Source: a bacterium
GTDB lineage: Bacteria; Patescibacteriota; UBA1384; 2-12-FULL-50-11
DNA length: 64,000 bases
Direction of reading: 5' to 3'
Assembly: GCA_021463485.1 (NCBI GenBank)
Contig: JAJTYJ010000003.1
Location: 23,292 to 87,291, forward strand
This document shows, one piece after another, positions 872 through 61,054 of this stretch. The position numbers were made by a program, and so were the translations under genes. The notes below the pieces were generated by a model. The model had not been told where the DNA came from and did no database searches. It saw only the letters and a list, made by a program, of their open reading frames with translations. How positions within the stretch are numbered: position 1 is the first letter of the stretch; the number at the start of each line of letters is the position of its first letter.

Positions 872-896
872 CCCGCCGTTGGCGGGTACTTTTTTA
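872..896 (+). terminator. Rho-independent terminator after PRTase gene
   Basis: cccgcc-gtt-ggcggg hairpin followed by T-run. Confidence 0.6.
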
Positions 897-961
897 CTTG
901 CTTCTAGTATCTGGCTGTGTTTCTATTGGGTTCGAACCGATTCGTCGGTTGTGGAGGGAAA

Positions 962-1990: not shown

Positions 1991-2016
1991 GCCGGCCACA
2001 AGCCGGCTATTTTTTA
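1991..2016 (+). terminator. Rho-independent terminator
   Basis: gccggc-cacaa-gccggc hairpin + TATTTTTTAT. Confidence 0.6.
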
Positions 2017-2089
2017 TTTGACACGCAATTTTTTTGACTGTACGACGAGTATAGGGGATCGTCAGTTCTTTAACCTACAGGAGGGTAAT

Positions 2090-4483: not shown

Positions 4484-5416
4484 GTGGTGGAAAAACTCCC
4501 TAGAATCGTAGTTGAGAAGCAAGGGTCGCATTCCGAGAACCCGCCGAAGGGTATCGAAATTCCGATCCGTGATGCGTTAGCGCGTCACGGCTTCACGGAA
4601 GGTAGTTGGTGTATGAAAGTTCGCATGGTGCACGCTCGTGGCGAAAGCCATAGCTATCGCGGTGCACACTTCAAAAGCCTTCGGAATTACGCTCGTAACG
4701 TCATCGACGTTGTGTCTCAGCCGGGCGCCGCTCATACGGCTTTCCCAGCAGACTTGATTGTCCCGGAGTGTTACGACGCAACTCACGTTCTCAACACGGT
4801 TCGACAGATCAACACCCTTGATCCGAACAAAGACGAGGACCTGGAGATGCTCAAGAAAGCATCGCAGTTCGACGTCGGCGCTTCTGCTAAGAGGCGCAGC
4901 AACGAACCTATCGCGTCAGTCCGTCGAAGCAACGAAGCGCGACAACAACGGATCGCCAAGTTCCTCGATAAGCCAAAAAACATCGACGCAGTCGGAGTAG
5001 TGATCCAGCGAGAATCTCTCAACGGTTCCGTTCCGATCAGCGTCCTGGATAAGGCGATCCGGGAAACGCTGCCATTTCAAATCTCAAGAGATGAGTTAGC
5101 GAGTACGCGAGCGATCTTCGTCTTAAACGAGGATCTTCTGCAGCCAGGTGATGGCGTGTACCACCTCTCCGAACGCGGCCAACTCTGGATCGAGAGCTTA
5201 CGTCAGCGTGAGCGCGACAACGAAGCGTTAGCGCAGCAAATGCAGCAGCAGCTTCTTTGGCGGCAGCTTGAGAAATGCGAACGCAGCCTTCGACAGTTCG
5301 ACGAACGGGTCGAGGCCGAGCGATCGTCGAGGCTTGAGACCATTCAACGACTCAAATCACAACTCGGGATTTCCGAGCAAGGAAGTGACGAACATGTATT
5401 GGTGTTGATGAGCTAA
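4484..5416 (+). CDS. Hypothetical protein (310 aa) with C-terminal coiled-coil/Gln-rich region; no recognisable domain
   Basis: GTG start 8 nt after AGGAGG; long ORF; sits immediately 3' of tRNA-Lys; appears GC-richer than neighbours by eye. Confidence 0.5.
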   Translation: MVEKLPRIVVEKQGSHSENPPKGIEIPIRDALARHGFTEGSWCMKVRMVHARGESHSYRGAHFKSLRNYARNVIDVVSQPGAAHTAFPADLIVPECYDATHVLNTVRQINTLDPNKDEDLEMLKKASQFDVGASAKRRSNEPIASVRRSNEARQQRIAKFLDKPKNIDAVGVVIQRESLNGSVPISVLDKAIRETLPFQISRDELASTRAIFVLNEDLLQPGDGVYHLSERGQLWIESLRQRERDNEALAQQMQQQLLWRQLEKCERSLRQFDERVEAERSSRLETIQRLKSQLGISEQGSDEHVLVLMS

Positions 5417-16796: not shown

Positions 16797-17231
16797 ATGA
16801 AGGCAGTGCATCGCAATAAAAAAGCCACCTTCGATTACGAAATACTCGACCGGCTTGAGGCAGGAATAGTTTTACTCGGCCCAGAAATTAAGGCAATTCG
16901 CGAAGGAAGAGCAACGATCGCTGGAAGCTATGTTAAACCGCTGTTGACTAACGGCATGGTTGAGATGTGGTGGGTCGGGAGCAACTTTCACGTTACTAGC
17001 GGAGATCCAACAAGAACAAAAAAACTATTACTACATAAAACAGAGATTAAAAAACTATTAGGTAAATTAAGCGCTGGCGAGTATACGATCGTACCGATCG
17101 ACCTTCATCTCGTTCGTGGTAAGGCAAAACTTACGATCGGGCTAGCAAGCAGACGAAAAAAGTACGACAAACGACAGAAGATTAAAGAGCGGGATATCGA
17201 GAAGAACCTTCGAGAGCGTTTTCGGGATTAG
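16797..17231 (+). CDS. smpB: SsrA-binding protein SmpB
   Basis: NKKATFDYEILDRLEAGIVLLGPEIKAIREGRATIAGSYV ... LLLHKTEIKKL conserved SmpB sequence. Confidence 0.9.
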   Translation: MKAVHRNKKATFDYEILDRLEAGIVLLGPEIKAIREGRATIAGSYVKPLLTNGMVEMWWVGSNFHVTSGDPTRTKKLLLHKTEIKKLLGKLSAGEYTIVPIDLHLVRGKAKLTIGLASRRKKYDKRQKIKERDIEKNLRERFRD

Positions 17232-18082
17232 TTATCTTGCACCGGTTCAGAGCTCGATGAGTTTGTCTCGCCCTGTTGGTTTGATCGTAAATTATTATCG
17301 GCTTTCAACTCGTCAGCAATCTTAGCTAGCTCGGTTTTAAAGTTAGATAATGATGTTCGAGCAGCTTTTAGCTGAGCCTTGGCGCTGGTAAGTAGATCTT
17401 TGTTGGTAGTAGAACTTGGGTTAGAAAGAACCTTCTTATATGTGTCGATTGCTGCCATTAGTGAGCTCTCGGCGCTGGCTAATTCCTTCTCTAAGACGGT
17501 GGTGTCAACTTGCTTCTCTTTCAATTTAAGAATTAATGGATCAAATCGATCATTAATTCGGTCTAAAATTTTACCAGCCCGACATAAACCGCTAATCGCG
17601 GGGTTGATATACATAAAGACCCTAGTTTTTTCGATCGCTGACTTTAGTTCTGTCCTTGCTGATTCGGCGCTTTCAGCCGCTTTAATTTTTGCGAGCGCTG
17701 CGTTAAGGTCGTTTCTTAGCGTTGTGATTGCGGCAGTGATTGGCGTTTTAACGTCAACAGAAGTAACTTTCGAGCAGTTGGCGCCTGAGAGTCGTCGCTC
17801 CTGCTCTGTGAGCACTTTTAATCTAACGTTAATTTGTTTTTCGGCGTAGGTAACCGTTCTCGTTTTTAGCGCTTCGGCTCGCTCAATACTACGCGCTTCT
17901 TTATACGCGCTACGCTCGAGCTTCATTGCTTCCAGATCAGTTTTAAATTTAGCTCTCACAGAGTCGCTTGTGGTCGTTGTCTGGTTTGTGCCTTGAGATT
18001 CTTGCGCAAAAACCAGCGGCGACGCCAGTAACATAACGATGAGCGCGATCACGGCGATAATAATTAATATTCGTTTCATCAC
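17228..18082 (-). CDS. Secreted alpha-helical/coiled-coil hypothetical protein with signal peptide
   Basis: N-terminal MMKRILIIIAVIALIVMLLASPLVFAQ signal-like segment; Ala/Lys/Glu-rich helical repeats. Confidence 0.5.
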   Translation of the reverse strand: MMKRILIIIAVIALIVMLLASPLVFAQESQGTNQTTTTSDSVRAKFKTDLEAMKLERSAYKEARSIERAEALKTRTVTYAEKQINVRLKVLTEQERRLSGANCSKVTSVDVKTPITAAITTLRNDLNAALAKIKAAESAESARTELKSAIEKTRVFMYINPAISGLCRAGKILDRINDRFDPLILKLKEKQVDTTVLEKELASAESSLMAAIDTYKKVLSNPSSTTNKDLLTSAKAQLKAARTSLSNFKTELAKIADELKADNNLRSNQQGETNSSSSEPVQDN

Positions 18083-18840: not shown

Positions 18841-19003
18841 ACTTTGAGTGAAGTTTTGTTAGGATCGGGCTTTAACCGTTGCGGCACAGCAGCCAAATTT
18901 CATGGCTTTCACTAACAAGACTTTTATAGTCAAAGAACTTCTCTAGGTATACTGTTCGACCTCCTACCTGTCAAGCAGGCATTTTTACGGGTAAAATACT
19001 CAT

Positions 19004-26419: not shown

Positions 26420-27034
26420 CTATGTTTTCAACCAGTTAAGATACGTTTTTCGGTGTAACGGCGACGGTCCAATCTCGTCAATTTTTCGTTTGTGATTGGC
26501 TGTGCCGTATCCGACGTTAGTTTGCCAATAGTATTGTGGAAAGAAGCGACCGTAGCTTTTCATAAGCTGATCCCGATAAGTTTTGGCGATAATCGAAGCG
26601 GCAGCGACTGGGTAGAAAAGTGAGTCGCCCCGAACTGCACGAATAGTTTTGTATTTTTTGGGCAATCGAACAAAGTCGGTTAGGAAAAGGTCGGCATTAA
26701 TTTTCTCTAGGGCTCTAGCATATGCTAATTCTTGAGCTTTTGTGATCCCAATGCTGTCGATCTCGTCGTTGCTGGCTTGTCCAAGTGATACTTGTTTGGC
26801 GTTGGCAATCAGTAGGGGAGTGAGTTCTGTTCTGGAAATGGCAGATAGCCTTTTCGAATCACAAACGTTCGGCAGCACAACGTTAATCTCGATCGCCGCA
26901 ACGACGATCGGTCCAGCTAACGCACCGCGCCCAACTTCGTCTAAGCCAACAATTCTACTAAATTGATATATGCTTTTTAACTCGTTGATAAACGATGGAT
27001 CGGGGTTAGGCAGCGACTTTTTGCTCGCGCTCAT
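26420..27034 (-). CDS. rnhB: Ribonuclease HII
   Basis: GLDEVGRGALAGPIVVAA and DSKRLS catalytic motifs. Confidence 0.9.
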   Translation of the reverse strand: MSASKKSLPNPDPSFINELKSIYQFSRIVGLDEVGRGALAGPIVVAAIEINVVLPNVCDSKRLSAISRTELTPLLIANAKQVSLGQASNDEIDSIGITKAQELAYARALEKINADLFLTDFVRLPKKYKTIRAVRGDSLFYPVAAASIIAKTYRDQLMKSYGRFFPQYYWQTNVGYGTANHKRKIDEIGPSPLHRKTYLNWLKT

Positions 27035-29849
27035 GTTGTTCTTCCCTCAAGAACCGACCTGTAATCGACTGTTCACACTTAATGATGTCTTCTGGCGTAC
27101 CTTCAGCTACTACTTCGCCGCCTCTTGTTCCGCCGTCTGGACCGAGATCAACGATCCAGTCAGCGCAGCGAATAACGTCAGTGTTATGCTCGATAACAAT
27201 TACGGTATTGCCTTTATCAACTAACTGGTAGAGCACTTGCAGTAAGCGCTGAATGTCTTCGAAGTGAAGACCGGTTGTTGGCTCATCAAGAATATAGAGT
27301 GTTTTACCGGTATCGCGCTTAGCTAATTCAGCGGCAAGTTTAATTCGTTGCGCCTCTCCGCCTGAGAGCGTTGTTGCTGGTTGACCGAGGCGAACGTAAC
27401 CTAATCCAACAGCCTGCAAGATATCAAGTTTTTCTCGAACTTCGATTTGATCCTGAAAGAAGGTGAGCGCTTCGTCGACGGTCATCGCCAAGATATCGCT
27501 AATGTCCTTACCGCGATAACGAATCTCAAGCGTCTCGGTGTTGTAGCGTTTCCCTTTGCACTCGGTACAAGTAACGTAAACGTCTGGCAAGAAGTTCATC
27601 TCAATTTTTATCTGACCGTCGCCGCGACAGTTCTCGCACCGTCCGCCCCGCAGGTTAAAACTAAATCGAGATGGGTCGTATCCACGATCCATCGCCTCTC
27701 TGGTATTGGCGAATAGCTCGCGAATCGGGCCGAGCGCGCTGGTGTAAGTTGCTGGGTTTGAGCGCGGTGTGCGACCGATCGGTGATTGATCGATATTAAT
27801 AATATTGTCGATCGCTTCCATACCTGTTATTTTTTCGTAAGGTGCCGCTTCGTTTGTTGAGCTACGGAAGTGATTCTCAACTGCTATAGCAAGCGTATCT
27901 TCAACTAACGTCGATTTACCCGAACCGGAGACGCCGGTAACACAGATGAGTTTGTTGAGAGGAAAATTGGCGGTGACGTTTTTTAAATTATTCCCTGTCG
28001 CACCGTGGACAGTTAAAACTTGCTCGGCGTGATCGTGTCGGTGTTGCGGGAGGCGAATCAGCTTGCGGTTTGACAGATACTGACCGGTGATCGAGTTGCT
28101 GTCCGCCATCACTTCTTTCGGTGTGCCCTGCGAGATTATCTCGCCGCCCTGTTCGCCGGCTCCTGGTCCCATGTCGATAAGATAGTCTGCTCGAAGCATC
28201 GTCTCTCGATCGTGTTCTACGACTATAACGGTATTGCCGCGCTCCTTAAGCTCCTCGATTGTTTTTAGTAATTTCTCATGATCGCGAGCGTGTAAGCCGA
28301 TCGACGGCTCATCAAGGATATAAACAACACCCGTTAAGCCAGAACCGAGCTGGTTAGCCAAACGAATTCGCTGCGCCTCGCCGCCGGCTAAGGTTGAGCT
28401 GGTGCGATTAAGCGTGAGATACCCCAAGCCGACTTCAAGGAGGTACTCAAGCCGAGAGGTGATTTCTTTTGTGATCGGCTCTGAAATCTTCTGGTCGGCG
28501 CTTACTGTGCTCTTTTGGAGTTTTTTAAAGAACGCCAATGCTTCCTCGATTGTCTGACTGGTAAGATCAATGATATTTTTATCCTCAATTTTAATCGAGA
28601 GCACTTCAATGCGCAGACGCTGGCCGTTACAGACATGGCAGAGTTTCTCGACCATATACTTTTCGATTTCGGCTTTAAGATAGTCTGAGTCAGTCTCCTG
28701 ATATCGGCGTTCAAGGTTCGGTAATACTCCTTCGAATCGATCGTCGTTCTCGCCAGCTTCGCCGTTGAGAATAATATCAAGCGTGTCTTTCGGTAAGTCG
28801 CCGACCGGTGTGTCGAGGCTAAATTTATACTTGACGGATAAATCATGTAGCGCTTTCTGATACCAGCTAGTCTGCGATGTCGTTCGACTCCACGGACGAA
28901 TCGCACCCTCTGCCAGAGTTAAACGGGGATTCGGTAATACCAATTCTGGTTCTGCTACGAGCCGTACCCCTAATCCCTGGCAAGACTGACACGCTCCTTC
29001 AGGGTTATTAAACGAAAAGAGGCGCGGCTCGATGTCGGGGAACTGCCAACCGCATTGATGACAGGCGTACTTTTGGGAGTAAAATCGCTCTTTCTCATTA
29101 ATCGGCGAAACTCCGATGACCAAACCGCTGCCAATTTTTAGCGAGCGCTCGACAGTTTTAAGTAAATCAGCAAAAACTACCTCACGAGACTGATCGTTGC
29201 TGACCGGAAAGTCCATCGAACCAGTTAAAAATTCGATAGTGTGTCGTTTGTTTTTATCGATCGTTAGGCCGATCGCTTCGTCGATGTCCATCTCAACACC
29301 GTCGATGCGTGCCTTCAATACTCCGCTTTTTTTACCTTGTTTAAGATGGTATTTATGTTCGCCTTTACGACCCTGAATAATGACGGCATACAGTTTTACT
29401 TTTAGTGTATCGTCGTTTGTAAATTCTTCTAAAATCAATTTTGCGATCGTTTCGGGATTTTGCTGTTTAACGACGATACCGCATTTCGGGCAGTACGGTT
29501 TGCCGAGTCGCGAGAAAAGCAAGCGGAGAAAGTCATAAATTTCGGTTGTCGTTGCTACTGTTGAACGAGGGTTGCGTGCTGCTGTCTTTTGATCGATCGC
29601 GATTGCTGGGGCAAGCCCGTCGATGTAGTCAAAGTCGGGTTTTTCGATGTCGCTCATAAACTGTCTGACGTACGACGAGAGGCTCTCGACGTAACGGCGC
29701 TGACCTTCAGCGAAAATTGTGTCGAATGCGAGCGAAGATTTCCCAGAACCGGAAAGGCCAGTGATCACTGTGATCTGGTTTTTTGGTATTTCAACGGTGA
29801 GGTTTTTTAGATTGTGGGTTCTGGCGCCAACAACGTGAATTTTTTCCAT
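27006..29849 (-). CDS. uvrA: Excinuclease ABC subunit A (UvrA), full-length, paralog 1
   Basis: Two ABC ATPase modules ([15 protein letters not shown] ; [11 protein letters not shown]), zinc-finger Cys clusters, LSGGEAQRI signatures, 947 aa. Confidence 0.95.
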
Positions 29850-33322: not shown

Positions 33323-33862
33323 ATGTCACGATACTCATCGGTATTTGAAGTTTTTCGAGTGATCGCCATCGTTTTTATCTCGGCGGTTATTATTCGCTAC
33401 TTTCTGTTTCAGCCGTTTATCGTTGAAGGATCGAGCATGGAACCAAACTATCACAACAGCGAGTATCTATTTATCGAGAAAGTCTCGTATCGTTTTCGTG
33501 AACCGAAGCGCGGTGAAGTTGTGGTATTCCGGTACCCAAATAACCCGAGCATCAACTACATTAAAAGAATTATCGGAGTACCAGGCGATACTGTTCGAAT
33601 TGAAAACGGGGTCGTTTCCGTTAACGGAAAACAACTTTCTGAAGAATATCTAGAAGAAGGTACAAAAACGATCGTCAATCGATCACCGGATTTGCCGTAT
33701 GAAGTAACGATCCCGAACCATAAATATTTCGTGATGGGCGATAATCGTTCGCACTCGTCAGATTCGCGTGATGGTTGGTTGGTTGATCGTCAGATGATCA
33801 TCGGGCGATCAGCGGCGACGCTTTACACTAATTCTTCGTCTCAATCTCCAGTTACGTTTTAA
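33323..33862 (+). CDS. lepB: Signal peptidase I
   Basis: Catalytic Ser box EGSSMEP, Lys box YIKRIIGVPGD, and GDNRSHSSDSR motif. Confidence 0.9.
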   Translation: MSRYSSVFEVFRVIAIVFISAVIIRYFLFQPFIVEGSSMEPNYHNSEYLFIEKVSYRFREPKRGEVVVFRYPNNPSINYIKRIIGVPGDTVRIENGVVSVNGKQLSEEYLEEGTKTIVNRSPDLPYEVTIPNHKYFVMGDNRSHSSDSRDGWLVDRQMIIGRSAATLYTNSSSQSPVTF

Positions 33863-34896
33863 CGCGGAGTGTGCGTTTGAATCCAGTCTAATATTTGGTT
33901 TATCCCGTCTTTTTTAATAGCTGAGATCGCTACTTGGTCGAAACGAGAGAGGTGTCGGTGGGTTTGTACGTTCGGATTTTCTAATAGATCGGTCTTGTTG
34001 AAGACGACCAGAACTGGTTTACCGAGCTCTTTAGCGTAATAAATTAAATGGAGGTCGCCTCTAGTACTGCCGGCAGTTGAGTCGAGCACAGCAATCACGA
34101 TATCGGCTTGAGTTATTGCTGTTAGTGTTCGTTTAACGCTAAACGCCTCGGGTCCGCGATCAATTTTGCCGCGCCGACGAACTCCGGCGGTATCGGCGAG
34201 AACGTACTCTTGAGCGCCGATCGTTACTTTTTCAGTGACGATATCTCGGGTTGTACCGGCAAGCGGACTAACTACCGCCCGTTGAGTGTTTGTTAATGCG
34301 TTTAATAGTGTAGATTTCCCGACGTTCGGTCTTCCAACTAACGCGATAACTGGCTGTGTGTGGGACGGGATTCTTACGTTTGGTAAATAATGACAAATTG
34401 CTTCTAGTAGATCGCCGGTCCCGCGTCCGCTACTGGCTGAAACTTCATAGTACGGCAGACCGATATCCGATAATCGCTCGAGCTTATGAAGTCTGTCGAT
34501 CGAATCGACTTTATTCGCTACCAGCCAAACGGTTCGCTTTCCTCGGAGTTGGTTAAGGAAGTTCTTATTTCGATCGTGAAGACCGGTTGCGGCGTCGTAC
34601 ACAAAAAGCACTAAATCTGCTTCTTCAGTTGCCTTTTGCATCTGTTCAAAAATCTGTGGCGTCAGCTCAGAATCGTCGTCAACTAAGCCGCCGGTGTCGA
34701 CCAAACTAAAGTACTGTCCTTGCCACTCTACCTCGCCGTACACCCTGTCTCGGGTTGTCGATTCCTCTTTGGCAGTAACAGCTTGCCATGAACCTGTTAA
34801 TCGATTAAAAAGTGAAGATTTTCCGGCGTTTGTTGGTCCGATTAGCGCTACGAGCGGCAAGACCGAGTGATCAGTTGTTGTTGAAAGGTTTTCCAT
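33859..34896 (-). CDS. der: GTPase Der/EngA with two tandem G domains; C-terminal KH-like domain absent
   Basis: G1 ALIGPTNAGKSSLFNRL...DTGGL...ANKVD; G2 IALVGRPNVGKSTLLNAL...DTAGV...FNKTDL; protein ends right after G5 of second G domain. Confidence 0.75.
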   Translation of the reverse strand: MENLSTTTDHSVLPLVALIGPTNAGKSSLFNRLTGSWQAVTAKEESTTRDRVYGEVEWQGQYFSLVDTGGLVDDDSELTPQIFEQMQKATEEADLVLFVYDAATGLHDRNKNFLNQLRGKRTVWLVANKVDSIDRLHKLERLSDIGLPYYEVSASSGRGTGDLLEAICHYLPNVRIPSHTQPVIALVGRPNVGKSTLLNALTNTQRAVVSPLAGTTRDIVTEKVTIGAQEYVLADTAGVRRRGKIDRGPEAFSVKRTLTAITQADIVIAVLDSTAGSTRGDLHLIYYAKELGKPVLVVFNKTDLLENPNVQTHRHLSRFDQVAISAIKKDGINQILDWIQTHTPR

Positions 34897-34900
34897 TAGA

Positions 34901-36583
34901 ATGCAGGTGATGTTATATGCAGAGGTAATCGTGGCGACTCGAACTAACACACAAGAACTTACCTACGCTGTTAGTGCTCAAATTGTACCTTATATAAGGT
35001 TGGGTAGTCTAGTTACCGTACCGCTCCGGCGCAAAACCGTACGCGGTGTTGTGGTTCGATTGCGTCAAAGCGTTCCAATTCAAATTAAATCGAAACTTCG
35101 TGAGATTCTTAATATTGATCGTAGCGGAATGATCGCTCCAGCATCAATTAAAGTTATGCAATCACTCTCAGAGCACTACGGAGCGAGTTTGGCAGAGGTT
35201 GCCTACCACCTATTAAGAGAAACAACGCCGTCGGCAAGTAGCGGTTCTGTTGGCCAAAACAATGACCCGATCTACGTCCAAGCAGCGTGGCTGCAGCGTC
35301 AAGAACAATATATGTCGTTGGTTAAAGCGTTTCCGGGGAGAGTGCTTTTACTTTTTTCACAACAAGAATACCTTGCTTCGTTTGAGCGTTCGTTATTACA
35401 AACTCCAGCGCTGCGAAGACGGTGCTTGTTAAAAACCTTATCTGGCGCTTTCTCCCAGTTACCACTAGGCTCGATGATTATCGTCGACCAACCGTATCAC
35501 ATTGGTGGAAAGTCGATGCGTCGACCGTTTATGACTACAAAATCGATCGCTGAAACTCGAGCGCAGTACGAGGGGCATCAACTTGTACTAGGTAACGGAG
35601 TGCTCGGGTTCGAAGAGATAATAAATGTGAGCGAGAAAAAAGCAGAACTTGTTTCTATCTCGCCGCCGTCCGTATCGTTTGTAGTCACTAAACAAACTAC
35701 GCGTCAGGGTATCGGCGAGACGACGATTAACCAAATTAACGAGGTGTTATCTGAGCAAAAAAATGTCGCTGTCATTACCCCATCTGGGAGTTGGGCACCG
35801 GCGTTCTTTTGCTCAGATTGCCAAAGCACACTTCAATGTCCGCGCTGCGCGCGGCCGATCGGGCTAATTTCACCTACAACTCACCAGTGTCAGTATTGCG
35901 GTTATACACAACAGCGATTAGCCGTCTGCCCGAGTTGCCAGAGCGAGAATCTAGTCGAAGTCGGCGTTGGGGTTCGACAGCTGCAAGCGTTTATTAAAAA
36001 GCACATCCCGAAGTCGGTGGTTGTTGAGTTAGGCGATAAAGACCTAGATAACAGCGGTAAAATACTCGTCACTAATGAAAAGTTTTTCAGCAACCCCATT
36101 CATCGGTTTGGCTTAGTTGTATTAGTCGGTTGGGATCGATTAGTTTCCGGCGTTTTTCCTGACGGCAACTGGCGTCTACTTAACACTATCATCGAGATTC
36201 AAGGCCAAGTACCGTCGATTGTGGTTGAGACACTCTACCCTGAACACTACTGCTGGGGGAACGTTACAGCCAAAAAACTACGTCGTTTTTTTGAAGAAGA
36301 GCTGAAAGAGCGACGACGCTTATCGCTCCCGCCGTACGGGCAGATTATCGAGGTTGTCGGTCGCGGTTCGATTCGTACGCTAGAGCATCAACAGGAAGAA
36401 TTACTACAAAAACTTGAGTCAAAAGGATACACTGTCTTACCAAAATCCTCGCTCGTTCGCGGCAGAAGTTACGAACTATCATTATCTGTCTTTTCTTCAA
36501 AAAAGTTTTCAACCAAACAGAAGCAACAGATCCGTGAGCAGCTACCGCCAAGTTGGCATTTAGATGTCGACATTGCGAGTTAG
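34901..36583 (+). CDS. PriA-like primosomal protein lacking helicase ATPase motifs (pseudo-helicase): 3' DNA-binding domain + Cys-rich zinc-binding region + C-terminal domain retained
   Basis: N-terminal 3'BD-like YAEVIVATRTNTQELTYAVSAQIVPYIRLGSLVTVPLRRKTVRGVVVRL; PriA Cys cluster FFCSDCQSTLQCPRCARPIG...HQCQYCGY...CPSCQS; where Walker A (GSGKT) and DEEH would be there is VLLLFSQQEY and IIVDQPYH. Confidence 0.6.
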   Translation: MQVMLYAEVIVATRTNTQELTYAVSAQIVPYIRLGSLVTVPLRRKTVRGVVVRLRQSVPIQIKSKLREILNIDRSGMIAPASIKVMQSLSEHYGASLAEVAYHLLRETTPSASSGSVGQNNDPIYVQAAWLQRQEQYMSLVKAFPGRVLLLFSQQEYLASFERSLLQTPALRRRCLLKTLSGAFSQLPLGSMIIVDQPYHIGGKSMRRPFMTTKSIAETRAQYEGHQLVLGNGVLGFEEIINVSEKKAELVSISPPSVSFVVTKQTTRQGIGETTINQINEVLSEQKNVAVITPSGSWAPAFFCSDCQSTLQCPRCARPIGLISPTTHQCQYCGYTQQRLAVCPSCQSENLVEVGVGVRQLQAFIKKHIPKSVVVELGDKDLDNSGKILVTNEKFFSNPIHRFGLVVLVGWDRLVSGVFPDGNWRLLNTIIEIQGQVPSIVVETLYPEHYCWGNVTAKKLRRFFEEELKERRRLSLPPYGQIIEVVGRGSIRTLEHQQEELLQKLESKGYTVLPKSSLVRGRSYELSLSVFSSKKFSTKQKQQIREQLPPSWHLDVDIAS

Positions 36584-36686: not shown

Positions 36687-38042
36687 ATGGATGTTCGAAT
36701 AATTTACGAACCGATCTTACGCCAAGTGATGAAGCCGGTCACGGTTTTTGACGAGCGATTAAAAAAAGAAGCCGACGAGATGGTCGCTACGATGCATCGC
36801 CAAAACGGTATCGGATTAGCGGCTAATCAAGTTGGCTTAGATAAGCAACTAATTGTTCTCGAATTCACGCCGCAAAAGGACGATGAGACACCAGCCATTC
36901 CTCGAACGCAGCTCTGCAACCCTAAAATTGTTAAAAGCTCGAGCGAAACAGAAGTTATGACTGAGGGCTGCTTGTCGTTGCCTGGTCTTGAATTACCTGT
37001 TCGTCGCAGTCTCGCAGTCGTGGTTGAGGCGCAAAATCTTCGAGGGGAAAAAGTAACAATTAAAGCCAAGGGACTATTTGCTCGAGTGCTTCAGCACGAG
37101 ATCGACCATCTTAACGGGGTTCTTTTTACTGATCGGACTGAAAAAACCAACACTATAAAGCCGTATACGTTCGCTAAAGTAGTATTTTTTGGCAGCGACG
37201 ATTTTAGCCTACCAGTTCTTAGAAGCGTTATTGAAACTGGCTACCAAGTGGTGGCTGTTTTCTGTGAGTCTGACAAACGTGGCGGGCGTGGGGATAATCG
37301 TATCATCTCACTAGTTAAAACGTTCGCCGAGCAACACAGCATTGCTGTATTTAGCCCTGAAACTAAAGAAGAGATCGCGCCGCTGCTTGCACAGATTAAA
37401 CCTGATCTCTTGGTATTGGCGTCCTATGGAAAGATCCTACCCGAGGAGGCATTGCGTCAACCGGTTTTCGGTTGTCTAAATGTTCACCCATCGCTATTAC
37501 CAAAATACCGCGGCGCAACACCGATTCAATCCGCCATATTAAACGGAGAAACCGAAACTGGCGTAACGATTATGTCGATGGCTAAATCTGTCGATGCCGG
37601 TGGAGTTATTGCGCAGCGAACAGCCCCGATCCTACCGAGCGATACTACGCCAGTACTCAGGGAGAAGCTGGCTGAACTTGGATCTCAACTACTAGTTGAA
37701 TTATTGCCAAAGTATTTAAGCGGTCAGGCAAAAATTATCGCTCAAGACGATGCACTGGCTACGCAGACAACCAAACTTTCTAAAGAGCTTGGTCGAATAA
37801 ATTGGGACGAACCAGCTGAACTGATTGTTAGAAAAATTAGAGCATTCTTGCCCTGGCCAGGAACGTATACGACGTTGAACGGGAAGCGCTTCATTATTCT
37901 TGAAGCAACGGTGAAGGATAGTACTGTGTTACCAATACGGGTACAGCTAGAGGGTAAAACCGCCGTGAATTGGGAGGATTTCTTGCGTGGATACCAAAGC
38001 CAATTGACTCGAGAACCCTGGTACGGTAAAATTTATCGGTAA
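36687..38042 (+). CDS. def-fmt: Fusion protein: peptide deformylase (N-terminal ~165 aa) fused in frame to methionyl-tRNA formyltransferase (C-terminal ~285 aa)
   Basis: Def motifs GIGLAANQVG, EGCLSLPG, HEIDHLNG followed without stop by Fmt N-domain KVVFFGSDDFSLPVL and HPSLLPKYRGATPIQSAILNGE; single continuous 451-aa ORF. Confidence 0.85.
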   Translation: MDVRIIYEPILRQVMKPVTVFDERLKKEADEMVATMHRQNGIGLAANQVGLDKQLIVLEFTPQKDDETPAIPRTQLCNPKIVKSSSETEVMTEGCLSLPGLELPVRRSLAVVVEAQNLRGEKVTIKAKGLFARVLQHEIDHLNGVLFTDRTEKTNTIKPYTFAKVVFFGSDDFSLPVLRSVIETGYQVVAVFCESDKRGGRGDNRIISLVKTFAEQHSIAVFSPETKEEIAPLLAQIKPDLLVLASYGKILPEEALRQPVFGCLNVHPSLLPKYRGATPIQSAILNGETETGVTIMSMAKSVDAGGVIAQRTAPILPSDTTPVLREKLAELGSQLLVELLPKYLSGQAKIIAQDDALATQTTKLSKELGRINWDEPAELIVRKIRAFLPWPGTYTTLNGKRFIILEATVKDSTVLPIRVQLEGKTAVNWEDFLRGYQSQLTREPWYGKIYR

Positions 38043-38506: not shown

Positions 38507-38878
38507 GTGGTAACAGGATTTTTTCGGTGGTGGTATAGCGAAGGAATTGTTCAAAGCGGACAGATTGTCTTGTACGCCGTTAATCGGATTACTGATTTCT
38601 TTTCGTTACCGATACTTATTAAAACTTGGACTGCGCCGTGGAAAGACGATCGTCTCGCGGCCGACAACGCCTCGCTTTCTGATCAAGTAAAGATACTCGA
38701 ATTAAATTTTGCCAGTCGAGTCGTCGGATTTTTAGTACGAACTGTTGTAATCGCGGTGGTTCTATTAATTTTAGCGGTACTTATAATACTGGCTGTAGTT
38801 GGCTTGGCGATTTGGATTTTAGTTCCGTTTGCCTGGCTATTACTACCAACAGTAGCAGTGATTGTGAGTTATCAATGA
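38507..38878 (+). CDS. Membrane protein, hypothetical (123 aa), translationally coupled to downstream AAA+ gene
   Basis: C-terminal hydrophobic helices VVIAVVLLILAVLIILAVVGLAIWILVPFAWLLLPTVAVIV; stop overlaps next start (ATGA). Confidence 0.45.
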   Translation: MVTGFFRWWYSEGIVQSGQIVLYAVNRITDFFSLPILIKTWTAPWKDDRLAADNASLSDQVKILELNFASRVVGFLVRTVVIAVVLLILAVLIILAVVGLAIWILVPFAWLLLPTVAVIVSYQ

Positions 38879-41292
38879 AGCAAAAGCTGCGAACGCAATC
38901 GATTCTCTTTTTCGACTCAACAACTATATTGGTTATTAGAATATTTTCGCACTTCTTGGGCGCTGTGAGCGTGCTGCTAATCATCGCGGCCTTGTTTTTC
39001 GAGCTTTCCCCGGCTGTTATCGGGCTAGCAGTCTTATTTACGACGCCATCGGTTCTATTTCTTGGTTACGGTTGGTATATTAACTTCCTTAAAATTAACC
39101 CAAGTTACGGGCTAACTTCGCGAGATCTCGAGTTGCCAGAGAACAGGTTGGATTTTGCGGTTTGGGAAGCGGTACTAGCAATGCAAAAAGGCGGTTGGAG
39201 CGGTTTTTGGCGGCGCATCAGCAGTGATGTTAATGCCCTGGAAGTATTATTGCGCCTACAGCTTTCCGAGGCTAAGTTAATAGAACTTTTTGAGAGCAAG
39301 GTGTCGAGTGGTGATTTAACTTCTGTACTAATCCGGGAAGTTGGGCAAACAATTAACGATGGCTCGGTGGGGACGGTTTTTGATCTTCTTTCGATTACGC
39401 TAAGTCACCAGGAATTTGCGCCACATTTTACAGCGCTAAAAATCTCTCCCGAAGAAGTTGAGCAGTTAATTGGGTACTATCGGGATCGACACGCACGGTT
39501 TCGCGCTCGACAGTTGTTTTGGCTTCATCCAGAACTGGCTAGAACCGGCGGATTTGCTGCTGGTTGGGCGTTGAGTTATACATCGACACTTGATCGATTT
39601 ACAGAAGAAATTACCTCCTCGATTAAATTCCATACCGAGCAGACGCCGTTATTTTCTCGATCGAGCGTTGTTGACTTAGTAATTTCTGAGCTCCAAAAAC
39701 AATCGAACCACAACGTATTGCTCGTAGGAGAAGAGGGGAGCGGGCGCAAAGAAATCTTTTATCACGTTGCGGATAAGCTTCTGCACTACCAATCAAATAC
39801 GCCGCTCGACGGCATCCAGGTACGGCTTCTCGACTCCGCGCGGTTAGTTGCGGCAACTGATAGCGTCGAACACTTACAGCAATTACTTGATCAAATTTTT
39901 ACGGAGATCAGTCGCTCGGGAAGAATTGTACTATTTATCGATCAACTCGAATCGTTACTTTCGGACAACAGCGTCGGAACAGTGAATCTGAGCCAGGTGT
40001 TAGCGAAATATCTTCAAGACGAGCGGATCCACATCGTCGCTACAATACAAACTAAAACTTACGTCACGCAAATTAAACCTGACGCTACGCTCGCTTCAAT
40101 TTGGGCAAAAATAGATATCGCGCCGCCTCCTAGTGCCGATTTACCGCTAATTATACTCTCCCATATCGCCCGCATTGAAAACCGTTACGACGTCTTCTTT
40201 AGCTATACTGCCTTGCGAGCGGTTACGCAGCTCTCCGGTCAGTATCTAACCGACTTACCTTCACCTGAGCGTGAGTTGATGATTACCGAGGAAGTAGCGG
40301 CGCGCAATCACGGTGAAAATAACCGAATTGTTGAGCCAAACGCTGTCACGAAGGTGATCGAGCAAAAAAGCGGAGTGCCGATAGAAGTCGGTGAGTCGGA
40401 AAAAGTGAAGCTCCAAGATCTGCCAAACATTCTCCATCAGCGAGTGATCGGCCAGGATGAAGCGATCCAGGCGGTGAGTGACGCTCTCTTGCGGGCTAGA
40501 GCAGGTATCGGAACGGGGAAGAAACCGCTCGGAACCTTCCTATTTCTCGGACCGACCGGGGTTGGGAAAACTGAAACAGCTCGTACGCTTGCCCAAATGT
40601 ATTTTGGCAGCCCAGATAAACTTATTCAGCTCGATATGACTGAGTACGGAGCCGAGGACGGCTTACAAAAACTACTCGGGACTGACGCGGTTTCACAGCC
40701 AGGTACGCTAACTATTGCGCTCGAAAAAAATCCGTCAGCGGTCCTTTTGTTCGACGAGTTCGAAAAGGCTCACCAGCTCGTGCAAAACACCTTACTCCAA
40801 ATCCTCGATGAGGGTAGGCTAACCACCAACTTCGGTAAGGTACTGCATTTCACCAACACAATTATTATCGCCACCAGCAACGCCGGCTCAAACTTTATTA
40901 AGCAGCAAGTTGAATCTGGACAAACAGTAAAATCCTTTAGTAAACAGCTAATCGATCAGTTAATTGCTGAGCGCGTGTTCACGCCTGAGCTTCTTAATCG
41001 TTTCGATACTGTTGCTGTTTACTCGCCGCTTTCGGCTAGCCAAATTGAGGCGATCGCAAAATTAAGAATCAACGAAACGCTCCAGAGTATCGAGCGAGAT
41101 AAAGGTATAATCGTTAGAGTTAACGATGCGGTAATTACGGAAATCGCAAAAAAGGGCTACGATCCAGTGTTCGGAGCTCGAGCTCTCTCACGAGTTATCA
41201 AATCAGAACTCGAAACTCAGATCGCTAGAAAAATTATTAGCGAGTCGCCCCAACCCGGCGCGACGCTAACCATCGATTCGCTGAGTAAGTAA
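38875..41292 (+). CDS. Membrane-anchored ClpB/ClpC-like double AAA+ ATPase: 2 N-terminal TM helices, Clp_N-like repeats, degenerate AAA+ D1 (Walker A GEEGSGRKE; Walker B FIDQLE), canonical D2
   Basis: D2: GPTGVGKTETARTLA (Walker A), VLLFDEFEKAH (Walker B), sensor/Arg finger region; D1 motifs degenerate as quoted; N-terminal hydrophobic segments. Confidence 0.7.
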   Translation: MKQKLRTQSILFFDSTTILVIRIFSHFLGAVSVLLIIAALFFELSPAVIGLAVLFTTPSVLFLGYGWYINFLKINPSYGLTSRDLELPENRLDFAVWEAVLAMQKGGWSGFWRRISSDVNALEVLLRLQLSEAKLIELFESKVSSGDLTSVLIREVGQTINDGSVGTVFDLLSITLSHQEFAPHFTALKISPEEVEQLIGYYRDRHARFRARQLFWLHPELARTGGFAAGWALSYTSTLDRFTEEITSSIKFHTEQTPLFSRSSVVDLVISELQKQSNHNVLLVGEEGSGRKEIFYHVADKLLHYQSNTPLDGIQVRLLDSARLVAATDSVEHLQQLLDQIFTEISRSGRIVLFIDQLESLLSDNSVGTVNLSQVLAKYLQDERIHIVATIQTKTYVTQIKPDATLASIWAKIDIAPPPSADLPLIILSHIARIENRYDVFFSYTALRAVTQLSGQYLTDLPSPERELMITEEVAARNHGENNRIVEPNAVTKVIEQKSGVPIEVGESEKVKLQDLPNILHQRVIGQDEAIQAVSDALLRARAGIGTGKKPLGTFLFLGPTGVGKTETARTLAQMYFGSPDKLIQLDMTEYGAEDGLQKLLGTDAVSQPGTLTIALEKNPSAVLLFDEFEKAHQLVQNTLLQILDEGRLTTNFGKVLHFTNTIIIATSNAGSNFIKQQVESGQTVKSFSKQLIDQLIAERVFTPELLNRFDTVAVYSPLSASQIEAIAKLRINETLQSIERDKGIIVRVNDAVITEIAKKGYDPVFGARALSRVIKSELETQIARKIISESPQPGATLTIDSLSK

Positions 41293-58537: not shown

Positions 58538-60169
58538 TTATTCGCTGTGCTTTAACGATTTTTTCCGCTGCCGTGTGCGCTGGAAATTAAGACCGTAACG
58601 ATGAACTTCATCGCGGATGCGAGCTAGTAAAAGTAATCCTTTATGAAACCGCTTCGCTGGAACCGGTGTTTTACGGTTTGGGACAAATATTCGGTCTGGC
58701 TTTTTTGCAAGTGAAATAATTCGGACGGAATCACGCTGTGATTGGTTTAAGGCAGCGACGGCAAATTTCAACTGCTCAGGACCGCCATCAATTACTAATA
58801 AATCTGGTAACGGTCGAACAGTGTCGCTGAGTCGACGTGAAACTACTTCGCAAATCATCGCAAAATCGTTCTGGCCTTGAACTGTTTTAATAATATAACG
58901 CCGGTATTCGTTTTTTTCTGGCTGACCATGAATGAAACAAACGGAAGCACCAACTGGTTCGCTTGCTCCGAGGTTTGAGATGTCGATAGCCTCAAGTCGT
59001 TCCGGTATCGCCGGTAAGCCCAGTAATTCCTTCAGAGCAATTAGCCCTTCGAAAGCCCTATCTTGGTTAATAAGACGCTGCTGGAGTTTTGATTCGGCGT
59101 TTCTACTAGATAGCTGCACCATTTGCAATTTCTCACCGCGTTCTGCCGTTCGAAGCTCCACTCGACGCCCGCTCTGCTGGGAGAGCAATAGCTCGATCAG
59201 CTGCTGATCTTCAAGTACTTCAGAAATCGCAACAAGTTGTGGGATAGCGTGAAGCGTCGGATACATTGTGGTTAAAAAGTCGCGCAGAATTTTTCTGTTG
59301 AATTCCCCTGAATAGTTCTCAACGAAAAAGTGTTGCTGCCCGCTAACACGACCGTCTCGGATATGAGTTACACAAATAATAGCTGTAGTACTTGAACTAA
59401 ATACTCCGAGGGCGTCGTAGTCTTCGTTGTGCGTTGAGATTACCGACTGTGGCGTGGTGATCTGTTGGCTGGCATGGAGTCGATCGCGAAGTTTTGCTGC
59501 TCGCTCAAATTGTTTTGTTTCAGCAGCGCGTTCCATTTCCAGTTGTAAATCGTTAAGAATATTTTTGCGCTTACCTCTAAGAAATAACGTCGCCTTATCT
59601 ACTTTCTCCTCGTAAGCTTCTTGGCTAATTTCGCCAGCGCACGGACAGGGGTGCCCAGTTAGTTGGCAGTGAAAGCATGCTCTAGTTTTATTCACCTGTA
59701 ACGGTTTGTCGCTGATATGAATACCGTAGAGATCTCGCAAGAACTCAAGTGTGAATTGTGCGGATCGTGCCGATAAATACGGTCCGAAATAGTGTTCGTT
59801 AGTTTTACTGGTACGACGGCGAACGATTGAGAAGCGGGGAATTAACTCGCCGCGACTTAGTTTAATAAACGGGTAAGTTTTGTCGTCTGTGAGTTTGATA
59901 TTAAACTTTGGCAAATACTGTTTGATTAATGTTGATTCGAGCATTAATGCTTCAAGCTCGTTTGTGACAATTGTAGTTTCAATGCGCTTAATTAAACCAA
60001 TCATGACTGCGATCCATGGTCGGTCAGAGTGAGCGCCTGAAAAGTAGCTCCGAACCCGGTTTCGCAAATTGATCGCTTTACCGACGTAGAGCACCGAATC
60101 GGTCTCGTCGTAGAACATATATATTCCGGGTTTTGCCGGAATCTCTTTAAGCTGATCGCTGATTTTCAT
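58538..60169 (-). CDS. uvrC: Excinuclease ABC subunit C, lacking C-terminal (HhH)2 domain
   Basis: GIY-YIG PGIYMFYDETDSVLYVGKAINLRNRVRSY, UvrBC-interaction region, RNase H-like endonuclease region ending ...DEVHRYGL. Confidence 0.9.
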   Translation of the reverse strand: MKISDQLKEIPAKPGIYMFYDETDSVLYVGKAINLRNRVRSYFSGAHSDRPWIAVMIGLIKRIETTIVTNELEALMLESTLIKQYLPKFNIKLTDDKTYPFIKLSRGELIPRFSIVRRRTSKTNEHYFGPYLSARSAQFTLEFLRDLYGIHISDKPLQVNKTRACFHCQLTGHPCPCAGEISQEAYEEKVDKATLFLRGKRKNILNDLQLEMERAAETKQFERAAKLRDRLHASQQITTPQSVISTHNEDYDALGVFSSSTTAIICVTHIRDGRVSGQQHFFVENYSGEFNRKILRDFLTTMYPTLHAIPQLVAISEVLEDQQLIELLLSQQSGRRVELRTAERGEKLQMVQLSSRNAESKLQQRLINQDRAFEGLIALKELLGLPAIPERLEAIDISNLGASEPVGASVCFIHGQPEKNEYRRYIIKTVQGQNDFAMICEVVSRRLSDTVRPLPDLLVIDGGPEQLKFAVAALNQSQRDSVRIISLAKKPDRIFVPNRKTPVPAKRFHKGLLLLARIRDEVHRYGLNFQRTRQRKKSLKHSE

Positions 60170-61028: not shown

Positions 61029-61054
61029 GCGGGGCGAAAGCCCCGCATTTTTTA
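61029..61054 (+). terminator. Rho-independent terminator
   Basis: gcggggc-gaaa-gccccgc hairpin + ATTTTTTAT. Confidence 0.75.

What the first reader, a model, noticed from the sequence alone, without database searches (positions are those of the whole stretch)
34901..36583. PriA-like protein that has lost its helicase ATPase motifs (pseudo-helicase)
The protein retains a recognisable PriA 3'-DNA-binding domain, the PriA-specific Cys4 zinc-binding region (FFCSDCQ...CPRCA...CQYCG...CPSCQ) and a C-terminal domain. At the positions of Walker A and the DEEH box it has VLLLFSQQEY and IIVDQPYH. It therefore cannot be an ATP-driven helicase, yet it is conserved enough to be expressed. This suggests a structural replication-restart or fork-recognition role, or dependence on a partner helicase.
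Basis: partly seen in the sequence, partly recalled or inferred. Interest (0 to 1): 0.55.

Follow-up and report, generated by a model that had tools for sequence, protein, structure and literature searches.

The report
PriA restart protein without helicase motor
This gene is the replication-restart protein PriA of a tiny Patescibacteria (CPR) bacterium; it keeps PriA's DNA-fork-recognition parts and overall fold but has lost every ATP-motor motif, a more extreme and far more widespread version of the "pseudohelicase" PriA described so far only in Deinococcus.

Summary
The ORF at 34901-36583 (+) is real, intact and under purifying selection (dN/dS 0.08-0.12). It is a full-length PriA homologue: profile-profile probability 100%, E 3.6e-60; predicted structure pLDDT 86, with PriA structures as the top nine PDB matches.

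It keeps the 3'-DNA-binding domain, both RecA-like lobes, the eight-Cys (two-zinc) region and the C-terminal domain. It sits in the ancestral priA-(def)-fmt position.

All SF2 helicase motifs are gone and the winged-helix domain is absent. Its "Walker A" (VLLLFSQQEY) is really motif Ia; the true Walker A position reads AAW-LQRQEQY. The conclusion that no P-loop exists still holds.

This gene is not an oddity. 148 of the 150 best cluster representatives, and 55 of 115 further relatives, lack both Walker A and motif VI. The named ones come from Patescibacteria, Omnitrophota and Caldatribacteriota.

The best reading is an ATP-independent fork-recognition and replisome-reloading scaffold. Precedents are E. 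coli priA300 (K230R) and D. radiodurans PriA.

I rate it a new, extreme variant of a known kind. Whether the genome also holds a canonical priA could not be tested.

The parts
34901..36583 (+). priA-like ORF, 560 aa. The likely true start is the ATG at 34910, giving 557 aa beginning MLYAEV.
   Evidence: ORF list. Relatives start at MLYA[EQ]V. hhalign to canonical PriA gives probability 100%, E 3.6e-60. AF2 pLDDT 86 with PriA top hits. dN/dS 0.08-0.12.
34922..35206 (+). 3'-DNA-binding domain (3'BD), residues 8-102.
   Evidence: Pfam PF17764 E 8.9e-12. Second most conserved region of the family, mean majority-residue frequency 0.71.
35216..35266 (+). Short low-confidence linker, about residues 106-122, where canonical long PriAs carry the winged-helix domain. 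The WH domain is absent.
   Evidence: About 100-150 alignment columns are gapped relative to canonical PriA. pLDDT below 50 at 109-116. A strong Foldseek TM (0.75) is to the E. coli PriA WH-deletion structure 6dcr.
35270..35311 (+). Walker A-equivalent segment, residues 124-137 (IYVQAAWLQRQEQY). The P-loop is erased. W130, R133 and Y137 are invariant in the family.
   Evidence: Aligns to LLxGVTGSGKTEVY. Invariants. No G....GK[ST] found.
35342..35374 (+). Motif Ia-equivalent, residues 148-158 (VLLLFSQQEYL).
   Evidence: Aligns to ALVLVPEIGLT of canonical PriA.
35477..35533 (+). Motif II/IIa-equivalent block, residues 193-211 (IIVDQPYHIGGKSMRRPFM). DEEH has become DQPYH. The following loop corresponds to the aromatic-rich, fork-junction loop of E. 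coli PriA.
   Evidence: Alignments. This is the most conserved block of the family at 0.77, with D196, P198, G202, R208 and P209 invariant. The role of the loop in E. coli comes from PMC10175261 and PMC5778457.
35768..35800 (+). Motif IV-equivalent, residues 290-300 (AVITPSGSWAP in place of LLFLNRRGYAP).
   Evidence: W298 is invariant in the family.
35810..35941 (+). Cys-rich region, residues 304-347, with four CxxC pairs (eight Cys, two predicted zinc sites) inserted in RecA lobe 2.
   Evidence: All eight Cys are invariant in the family and in canonical PriA.
36065..36097 (+). Motif V-equivalent, residues 389-399 (LVTNEKFFSNP in place of LIGTQMLAKGHHFP).
   Evidence: E393 and P399 are invariant.
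36194..36208 (+). Motif VI-equivalent, residues 432-436 (EIQGQ in place of QVAGRAGR). The arginine fingers are lost.
36236..36580 (+). C-terminal domain, residues 446-560, including LSLPPYG and WHLDVD.
   Evidence: Aligned end to end with the canonical PriA CTD. L476, P477 and P478 are invariant. Pfam PriA_C itself is not detected.
36687..38042 (+). Downstream def-fmt fusion gene (peptide deformylase plus Met-tRNA formyltransferase). It serves as the synteny anchor that marks the ancestral priA position.
   Evidence: ORF. Pfam domains of the orthologues in L001, L003 and L004. The priA-(def)-fmt order also holds for canonical priA in Halobacillus and for degenerate PriAs in Falkowbacteria, Omnitrophota and Caldatribacteriota.
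33859..34896 (-). Divergently transcribed der/engA GTPase gene. Its start codon lies 4 nt (or 13 nt) from the priA-like start codon.
   Evidence: Sequence read. Called as 345 aa with two MMR_HSR1 domains in L001 and L003.

Best explanation
This is the lineage's priA orthologue (primosomal protein N', the replication-restart initiator). It has evolved into a complete pseudohelicase.

Shown:
- The protein keeps the PriA fold and the parts that in E. coli PriA grip an abandoned fork. These are the 3'BD for the nascent leading-strand end, the loop after motif II that wedges at the fork junction, and the CRR, RecA lobe 2 and CTD that form the pore around lagging-strand ssDNA.
- It has no P-loop, no catalytic Glu and no arginine fingers, and it has no winged-helix domain.
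- It evolves under purifying selection and sits in the conserved priA-(def)-fmt position.

Inferred:
- It binds stalled forks and D-loops without using ATP.
- It then acts as a landing pad that recruits the replicative helicase DnaB, directly or through SSB or a loader, to reload the replisome.
- Any removal of lagging-strand duplex is left to other factors, or is unnecessary in a roughly 0.7-Mb genome.
- The former nucleotide cleft has been rebuilt with new family-invariant residues (W130, R133, Y137, D196-Q-P-x-H, R208-P209, E393, D412-R413). These probably fix the two RecA lobes in one DNA-binding conformation.
For: Homology and fold:
- establish PriA homology.
- hhalign gives probability 100%, E 3.6e-60 over 577 columns.
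- The AF2 model has pLDDT 86.3 and pTM 0.86.
- The nine best Foldseek PDB hits are all PriA, TM 0.64-0.79.

Motif loss:
- Searches show all helicase motifs replaced.

Selection:
- dN/dS is 0.083 (vs L001) and 0.121 (vs L002). It stays below 0.3 in every domain with measurable dS.
- The neighbouring genes give 0.097 (def-fmt) and 0.027 (der).
- The 3'BD and the motif II/IIa block are the most conserved regions of the family.

Orthology by position:
- The order lepB / der(-) / priA-like / def-fmt / rpsP holds in L001, L003 and L004.
- The same neighbourhood surrounds the less degenerate Berkelbacteria protein.
- priA-like lies next to def and/or fmt in Falkowbacteria and Omnitrophota.
- The Caldatribacteriota pseudo-PriA shares the gene order yicC-remA-gmk-rpoZ-coaBC-priA-(def)-fmt-rsmB with canonical Halobacillus priA.
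- tblastn with canonical PriAs finds no second PriA locus in the window or in any fetched locus.

Precedent:
- ATPase-dead E. coli PriA K230R supports restart (PMC5778457).
- D. radiodurans PriA lacks ATPase and helicase activity yet binds ssDNA, forks and DnaB (PMC4504706).
- The fork-binding roles of the 3'BD, HD1 loop, CRR, HD2 and CTD come from the cryo-EM structure (PMC10175261).
Against: - No biochemical or genetic data exist for this protein or any close relative. DNA binding, DnaB/SSB interaction and the absence of ATPase activity are all inferred.
- Only about 9% of the genome is in the window. A related 685-kb contig (BOKZ01000001.1) is visible for only 21 kb, so a second, canonical priA elsewhere is not excluded.
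- The WH domain, which contacts the parental duplex in E. coli, is missing. HD1 is shortened by about 25 residues in this subclade. Fork recognition may therefore differ from E. coli.
- The PriB-docking residues of the CRR (T482 and H483 in E. coli) are not conserved, so the partner is unknown.
- The protein evolves 2-4 times faster than its neighbours: dN to L003 is 0.40, against 0.18 for def-fmt and 0.09 for der.
Confidence: 0.7

Rival explanations
1. Neofunctionalised PriA derivative. The protein still binds branched DNA through the PriA scaffold, but it now serves something other than replisome reloading, such as fork protection, a recombination or repair adaptor, or regulation. A canonical PriA or another restart route may exist elsewhere in the genome.
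For: New, strongly conserved family-specific motifs replace the helicase motifs: DQP[YD]H.G.KS..RPFM, ARGWA, ATEKIFSFP and DRLLSG. This indicates new constraints rather than mere decay. The protein evolves faster than its neighbours. The rest of the genome could not be inspected.
Against: It occupies the ancestral priA slot next to def-fmt. A graded series of less degenerate PriAs occupies the same slot in other lineages. No second PriA-like sequence is seen in the window or loci. The elements needed for fork recognition are the best conserved.
Confidence: 0.17
2. It is still an NTP-dependent motor or switch that uses a non-canonical nucleotide site. One candidate is the conserved G-[GA]-K-S after motif II. 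Another is the proposed second, weak nucleotide site of PriA.
For: HIGGKS is conserved. The literature mentions a second, unlocated nucleotide-binding site in E. coli PriA (PMC5778457).
Against: The K of GGKS aligns with the ancestral [FY]K[QE] of motif IIa in canonical PriA. It lies in the loop after the Walker B strand, not between strand 1 and helix 1 where a P-loop sits. Walker A, the catalytic Glu and both motif VI arginines are all absent.
Confidence: 0.05
3. It is a decaying relic, a gene on its way to loss in a reduced genome, with no selected function.
For: The loss of catalytic motifs and a domain, together with fast evolution, fits reductive evolution in Patescibacteria.
Against: Full-length ORFs are intact in more than 40 clusters at 50% identity. 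dN/dS is about 0.1 in all domains. About 60 residues are invariant across relatives that share only about 35% identity with the window protein, including all eight Cys. The predicted fold is confident.
Confidence: 0.02

Closest known systems
Canonical PriA (primosomal protein N') of E. coli / K. pneumoniae (PDB 4NL4, 6DGD, 8FAK)
   Same: The domain order is the same: 3'BD, RecA lobe 1, RecA lobe 2 with an inserted eight-Cys zinc region, then the CTD. Whole-chain structural match has TM 0.64-0.79. hhalign gives probability 100%. The gene sits in the same position next to (def)-fmt as in Firmicutes-type genomes.
   Different: Motifs I, Ia, II, III, IV, V and VI are all replaced. There is no winged-helix domain. 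HD1 is shortened. The PriB-docking residues are not kept. Identity is only about 20%, and it scores far below the NCBIfam PriA cut-offs.
Deinococcus radiodurans PriA pseudohelicase (Lopper et al. 2015, PMC4504706)
   Same: It is a natural PriA orthologue whose Walker A and B motifs depart from consensus. That one was shown to lack ATPase and helicase activity while still binding ssDNA, forks and DnaB. This makes it the conceptual precedent for an ATP-independent PriA.
   Different: According to the paper, Deinococcus-Thermus PriAs keep a recognisable P-loop with Lys changed to Arg. Here the P-loop is erased and all seven motifs are overwritten. It is a different phylum (Patescibacteria), so presumably an independent origin. 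No biochemistry exists here.
E. coli priA300 (PriA K230R) engineered ATPase-dead allele
   Same: It shows that a PriA without ATPase, helicase or translocase activity can still assemble primosomes and support the PriA-PriB restart pathway in vivo (PMC5778457).
   Different: It is a laboratory point mutant in an otherwise canonical protein. It depends on PriB and DnaT, which are not expected in Patescibacteria. It fails in the PriA-PriC pathway.
E. coli PriA winged-helix deletion (PDB 6DCR) and natural short canonical PriAs (e.g. P0124 from Margulisbacteria, 659 aa)
   Same: The same WH-less architecture. 6dcr is among the best structural matches, TM 0.75. P0124 and P0147 carry Walker A at residues 151-155, directly after the 3'BD.
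   Different: Those proteins retain all the helicase motifs.
Walker-A-less PriAs of other Patescibacteria, Omnitrophota and Caldatribacteriota (e.g. P0193, P0205, P0195, P0239)
   Same: Walker A and motif VI are lost while the 3'BD, CRR and CTD are kept. The genomic position is the same.
   Different: Those proteins keep remnants such as P[ED]I in motif Ia, D[ED]E[HQ] in II, GS..P in III, FLNRRG in IV and GTQ in V. They are still named 'primosomal protein N'' by NCBI. The window's clade has lost these remnants too, and NCBI names its members 'hypothetical protein'.

Membership tests
PriA / primosomal protein N' (replication restart protein) | N-terminal 3'-DNA-binding domain (Pfam PF17764) | tested here: met
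   E 8.9e-12, 45 bits against a 22.7-bit cut-off, residues 8-102.
PriA / primosomal protein N' (replication restart protein) | Two RecA-like SF2 lobes (fold) | tested here: met
   AF2 model pLDDT 86. Whole-chain Foldseek matches to PriA at E 1.9e-32, with other SF2 helicases from 3e-6.
PriA / primosomal protein N' (replication restart protein) | SF2 helicase motifs I (GxxGxGKT), II (DEEH) and VI (QxxGRxGR), which confer ATPase and helicase activity | tested here: not met
   The aligned positions read AAW-LQRQEQY, DQPYH and EIQGQ. Regular-expression scans are negative. Pfam DEAD and Helicase_C are not detected.
PriA / primosomal protein N' (replication restart protein) | Cys-rich region with four CxxC pairs (two Zn) inserted in lobe 2 | tested here: met
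   C304, 307, 313, 316, 330, 333, 343 and 346 are invariant in the family and aligned with the canonical Cys. Zinc binding itself was not tested.
PriA / primosomal protein N' (replication restart protein) | C-terminal domain (PriA_C, S10-like) | tested here: met
   Aligned to the canonical CTD through to the last residues by hhalign and included in the structural matches. The Pfam PF18074 model itself does not reach threshold.
PriA / primosomal protein N' (replication restart protein) | Winged-helix domain between the 3'BD and the helicase core | tested here: not met
   A gap of about 100-150 columns relative to long PriAs. The domain is not universal, because canonical short PriAs also lack it.
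PriA / primosomal protein N' (replication restart protein) | Scores above the curated equivalog cut-off (NCBIfam TIGR00595 / PRK05580) | tested here: not met
   107.5 bits against 230.35 for TIGR00595, and 130.9 against 813 for NF004066. NCBI names its close relatives 'hypothetical protein'.
PriA / primosomal protein N' (replication restart protein) | Conserved genomic position upstream of (def)-fmt | tested here: met
   Seen in the window, in L001, L003 and L004, and around canonical Halobacillus priA.
PriA / primosomal protein N' (replication restart protein) | Structure-specific fork or D-loop binding and primosome or DnaB loading | not testable with these tools
   Requires biochemistry or genetics.
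PriA pseudohelicase (Deinococcus-Thermus type, Lopper 2015) | PriA orthologue with non-consensus Walker A and B motifs | tested here: met
PriA pseudohelicase (Deinococcus-Thermus type, Lopper 2015) | P-loop retained with the catalytic Lys replaced by Arg (as described in PMC4504706) | tested here: not met
   No P-loop-like G-rich segment exists at the aligned position. The comparison relies on the paper's description; no Deinococcus sequence was aligned here.
PriA pseudohelicase (Deinococcus-Thermus type, Lopper 2015) | Demonstrated lack of ATPase and helicase activity with retained DNA and DnaB binding | not testable with these tools
   Requires purified protein.

The most novel reading that the evidence does not exclude
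PriA's motor may have been discarded across a large part of bacterial diversity, not just in Deinococcus-Thermus. The lineages would include many Patescibacteria classes, Omnitrophota and Caldatribacteriota. ATP-independent, scaffold-only replication restart would then be a common natural mode. This clade would be its end-point: the former ATP cleft has been rebuilt with a new invariant residue set (W130, R133, Y137, DQPxH, R208-P209, E393, D412-R413). That set either locks the RecA lobes in a fork-bound conformation or creates a new partner- or ligand-binding site. The protein is also the only PriA in its genome.
Probability: 0.35. Interest if true: 0.65.

Novelty: new variant of a known kind. 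Interest (0 to 1): 0.5.

Why it matters
[quoted passage not shown] Why cells keep the motor is unsettled, because ATPase-dead PriA suffices for the main E. coli pathway.

The data here show that motor-less PriAs are numerous. 148 of the 150 nearest 50%-identity cluster representatives lack the motor motifs. The state occurs in at least three candidate phyla or superphyla. This Patescibacteria clade is the most extreme case.

That provides many natural experiments on what PriA does without a motor. It also provides a minimal PriA of about 557 aa (no WH domain, no ATP site) for structural and biochemical study of fork recognition and DnaB recruitment in organisms that lack PriB and DnaT.

There is also an annotation caveat. 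NCBI names members of this clade "hypothetical protein". Comparative surveys would therefore wrongly score these genomes as lacking PriA.

Tried and rejected
- **Second canonical priA.** tblastn with three canonical PriAs against the window and all 13 loci held at that point (L001-L013) found only the known locus in each. The whole genome could not be scanned. Only 21 kb of the 685-kb BroJett034 contig is held.
- **AFDB fold search.** I wanted organism and annotation names from afdb50, but the library was unavailable.
- **Literature.** I found no paper on PriA motif loss in Patescibacteria or CPR. The only PriA pseudohelicase paper concerns D. radiodurans.
- **Counting independent losses.** In a crude neighbour-joining tree of 297 PriA-like proteins, all 82 canonical proteins form one pure clade. 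The motif-less ones form a grade ending in the window's clade. With midpoint rooting and very long branches, this cannot separate one loss from several, so I draw no conclusion.
- **Cluster-member look-ups for taxon names.** These gave few names.
- **Promoter and terminator scan around the gene.** Counts were at chance level.
- **GGKS after motif II as a cryptic P-loop.** Rejected, because it aligns with the ancestral [FY]K[QE] of motif IIa and lies after the Walker B strand.
- **Partner helicase or loader in the window.** None was found among the annotated ORFs.
Full report
**1. The observation**

The window holds a 560-codon ORF at 34901-36583 on the + strand. Most relatives start at the internal Met that corresponds to 34910 (MLYA[EQ]V). 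I therefore take 34910 as the likely start.

The start codon of the divergently oriented der (engA) gene is at 34896 on the minus strand. That is only 4-13 nt away.

The ORF is PriA-like by every measure tried:
- Pfam detects only the PriA 3'-DNA-binding domain, residues 8-102, E 8.9e-12.
- NCBIfam PriA equivalog models match at E 5e-38 to 6e-31, but far below their trusted cut-offs. TIGR00595 scores 107.5 bits against 230.
- phmmer finds the E. coli and Klebsiella PriA chains of the PDB at about E 3e-21.
- A profile of 20 relatives aligned to a profile of 24 canonical PriAs gives hhalign probability 100%, E 3.6e-60, with 577 aligned columns from the first to the last residue.
- An AlphaFold2 model built on the family alignment is confident, mean pLDDT 86.3 and pTM 0.86.
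- The nine best Foldseek matches of that model in the PDB are all PriA, E 1.9e-32 to 8.8e-25 and query TM 0.64-0.79. They include the E. coli winged-helix-deletion protein 6dcr. The next protein, Mfd, is at 3e-6.

**2. The motifs**

Three independent alignments agree on the register (MAFFT; hhalign).

| Canonical motif | Canonical sequence | Window protein |
|---|---|---|
| I (Walker A) | LLxGVTGSGKTEVY | IYVQAAW-LQRQEQY, residues 124-137; the G-rich P-loop is gone |
| Ia | ALVLVPEIGLT | VLLLFSQQEYL |
| II | I(L/I)DEEHD | IIVDQPYH |
| III | GSATP | GNGVL |
| IV | FLNRRGYAP | ITPSGSWAP |
| V | GTQMLAKGHHFP | TNE---KFFSNP |
| VI | QVAGRAGR | EIQGQ |

The conclusion that there is no Walker A still holds. 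The loss extends to all seven SF2 motifs, including the catalytic Glu and the arginine fingers.

No G....GK[ST] is present in this protein or in its 20 closest relatives.

The eight cysteines of the Cys-rich region (four CxxC pairs, two predicted zinc sites) are invariant. The C-terminal domain aligns to the end, including LPPYG.

The winged-helix domain of long PriAs is absent. That is not peculiar to this protein. Short canonical PriAs such as P0124 (Margulisbacteria) also carry Walker A directly after the 3'BD.

**3. Is it a live gene, and is it the priA orthologue?**

Codon alignments with orthologues from other assemblies give dN/dS of 0.083 (96% identical protein, L001) and 0.121 (69%, L002). 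The value stays below 0.3 in every domain where dS is measurable.

The adjacent def-fmt gene gives 0.097 and der gives 0.027 over the same distance.

The protein evolves faster than its neighbours. Its dN to L003 is 0.40, against 0.18 for def-fmt and 0.09 for der. It is nonetheless clearly under purifying selection.

About 60 positions are invariant across relatives that share only about 35% identity with the window protein.

Gene order is conserved:
- lepB, der (opposite strand), priA-like, def-fmt fusion, rpsP in L001, L003 and L004.
- A less degenerate Berkelbacteria homologue lies in the same lgt-lepB ... def-fmt neighbourhood.
- The Falkowbacteria and Omnitrophota homologues lie next to def and/or fmt.
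- A Caldatribacteriota homologue lies in exactly the order found around canonical priA of Halobacillus: yicC-remA-gmk-rpoZ-coaBC-priA-(def)-fmt-rsmB.

These proteins are therefore positional orthologues of priA, not extra paralogues.

tblastn with canonical PriAs finds no second locus in the window or any fetched locus. The rest of the genome could not be searched.

**4. Where it comes from and how common it is**

The nearest genome is Patescibacteria group bacterium BroJett034 (BOKZ01000001.1, a 685-kb contig). It is 97% identical in protein and about 95% in DNA.

Other members of the close family come from MAGs labelled Patescibacteria, Berkelbacteria and Saccharibacteria. NCBI names them "hypothetical protein".

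A family profile searched against 1.84 billion cluster representatives found 14,592 proteins at E <= 1e-3. About 41 representatives belong to the close family (at least 341 bits). A second tier of proteins of roughly 580-660 aa follows.

Of the 150 best representatives, 148 lack both Walker A and motif VI.

A second search seeded with 45 second-tier proteins returned 115 new proteins. These split cleanly: 55 lack both motifs and 60 have both.

Named motif-less proteins come from Berkelbacteria, Falkowbacteria, Kuenenbacteria, Parcubacteria, "Patescibacteria group", Omnitrophota and Caldatribacteriota.

These second-tier proteins keep remnants: P[ED]I, D[ED]E[HQ], GS..P, FLNRRG and GTQ. The window's clade has replaced even those with its own conserved motifs: DQP[YD]H.G.KS..RPFM, ARGWA, ATEKIFSFP and DRLLSG. 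It is the far end of a gradient.

A crude NJ tree places all canonical proteins in one clade and the motif-less ones in a grade. I do not regard this as able to count losses.

**5. How it most likely works**

In the E. coli PriA/PriB/fork cryo-EM structure, different parts of PriA grip different parts of the fork (PMC10175261):
- The 3'BD holds the nascent leading-strand 3' end.
- A loop of helicase lobe 1 is wedged at the fork junction.
- The CRR, lobe 2 and the CTD form a pore around the lagging-strand template.
- The WH domain touches the parental duplex.

In the present family, the two best conserved regions are the 3'BD (mean majority-residue frequency 0.71) and the block that aligns with motif II plus the following loop (0.77). 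The CRR, lobe 2 and CTD are all retained.

ATPase-dead PriA (K230R) supports PriA-PriB restart in E. coli (PMC5778457). D. radiodurans PriA has no ATPase or helicase activity, yet it binds ssDNA and forks with near-normal affinity and binds DnaB directly (PMC4504706).

I therefore infer an ATP-independent fork-recognition scaffold that recruits the replicative helicase. The rebuilt cleft probably fixes the two RecA lobes in a DNA-binding conformation. The steps after [quoted passage not shown] are inference.

**6. Rivals**

- **A PriA-derived protein with a new role, possibly alongside a canonical priA elsewhere.** This is not excluded, because the genome could not be scanned. It is disfavoured by the synteny series.
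- **A non-canonical nucleotide site.** The conserved GGKS might suggest one. It is unlikely, because that Lys is the ancestral motif IIa Lys and sits after the Walker B strand.
- **A decaying relic.** The selection data contradict this.

**7. Comparison with what is known, and novelty**

The kind (a PriA pseudohelicase) is known from Deinococcus-Thermus (PMC4504706). The 2017 review treats that phylum as the only exception (PMC5778457). My literature searches found nothing on PriA motif loss in Patescibacteria.

This case differs in three ways:
- Degree: the P-loop is erased rather than changed from K to R, all motifs are overwritten, and HD1 is shortened.
- Lineage: Patescibacteria rather than Deinococcus-Thermus.
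- Scale: it is part of a very large, previously undescribed set of motor-less PriAs.

I rate it a new variant of a known kind, of moderate interest (0.5).

Noticed in passing
window 36687-38042 (+): Peptide deformylase and Met-tRNA formyltransferase are fused in one 451-aa ORF (def-fmt). The fusion is conserved in L001, L003, L004 and L014. Falkowbacteria and Caldatribacteriota have separate def and fmt genes.
   Followed up: partly
window 38812-41292 (+): A ClpB/ClpC-like protein (826-aa ORF, called as 805 aa in L001) has hydrophobic N-terminal segments. Only the second AAA+ module is intact (GPTGVGKT at 580, VLLFDE at 644). The D1-equivalent region reads GEEGSGRKE and FIDQLE, so its Walker A and B look degenerate. 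This would be a second decayed ATPase module in the same genome.
   Followed up: partly
window 27006-29849 (-) and 61052-63889 (-): Two full-length UvrA paralogues (947 and 945 aa, 51% identical). Each keeps both Walker A motifs. uvrC lies at 58538-60169.
   Followed up: partly
window 18852-18930 (-), with ORF 17228-18082 (-): An AdoCbl-II (B12) riboswitch aptamer (46.8 bits, above the gathering score) lies upstream of a 284-aa ORF that has no Pfam match.
   Followed up: no
window 9893-15601 (+): A giant 1902-aa ORF. Its only Pfam matches are a C-terminal CarboxypepD_reg-like domain (E 1.2e-19) and an overlapping weak phage_tail_N match, so it is otherwise essentially unannotated.
   Followed up: no
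window 34896 / 34901-34910: The der and priA-like genes are divergent, with start codons only 4-13 nt apart. Each promoter must therefore lie inside the other gene. A weak sigma-70-like match on the minus strand at 35011-34982 lies inside the priA-like ORF, but the scan counts were at chance level.
   Followed up: partly
L004 11819-12559 and L005 1973-2713: In the P0012 subclade, a 246-aa ORF with no Pfam match is inserted between the priA-like gene and def-fmt. It is absent from the window.
   Followed up: no
L016 6001-7860 (Omnitrophota) and L018 5001-7064 (Caldatribacteriota): PriA orthologues outside Patescibacteria also lack Walker A and motif VI. The Caldatribacteriota gene lies in the same yicC-remA-gmk-rpoZ-coaBC-priA-def-fmt-rsmB order as canonical Halobacillus priA in L017.
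   Followed up: partly
window 245-3325 and 4484-5416 (+): Four consecutive sizeable ORFs (208, 357, 435 and 310 aa) have no Pfam match at E <= 1e-5.
   Followed up: no
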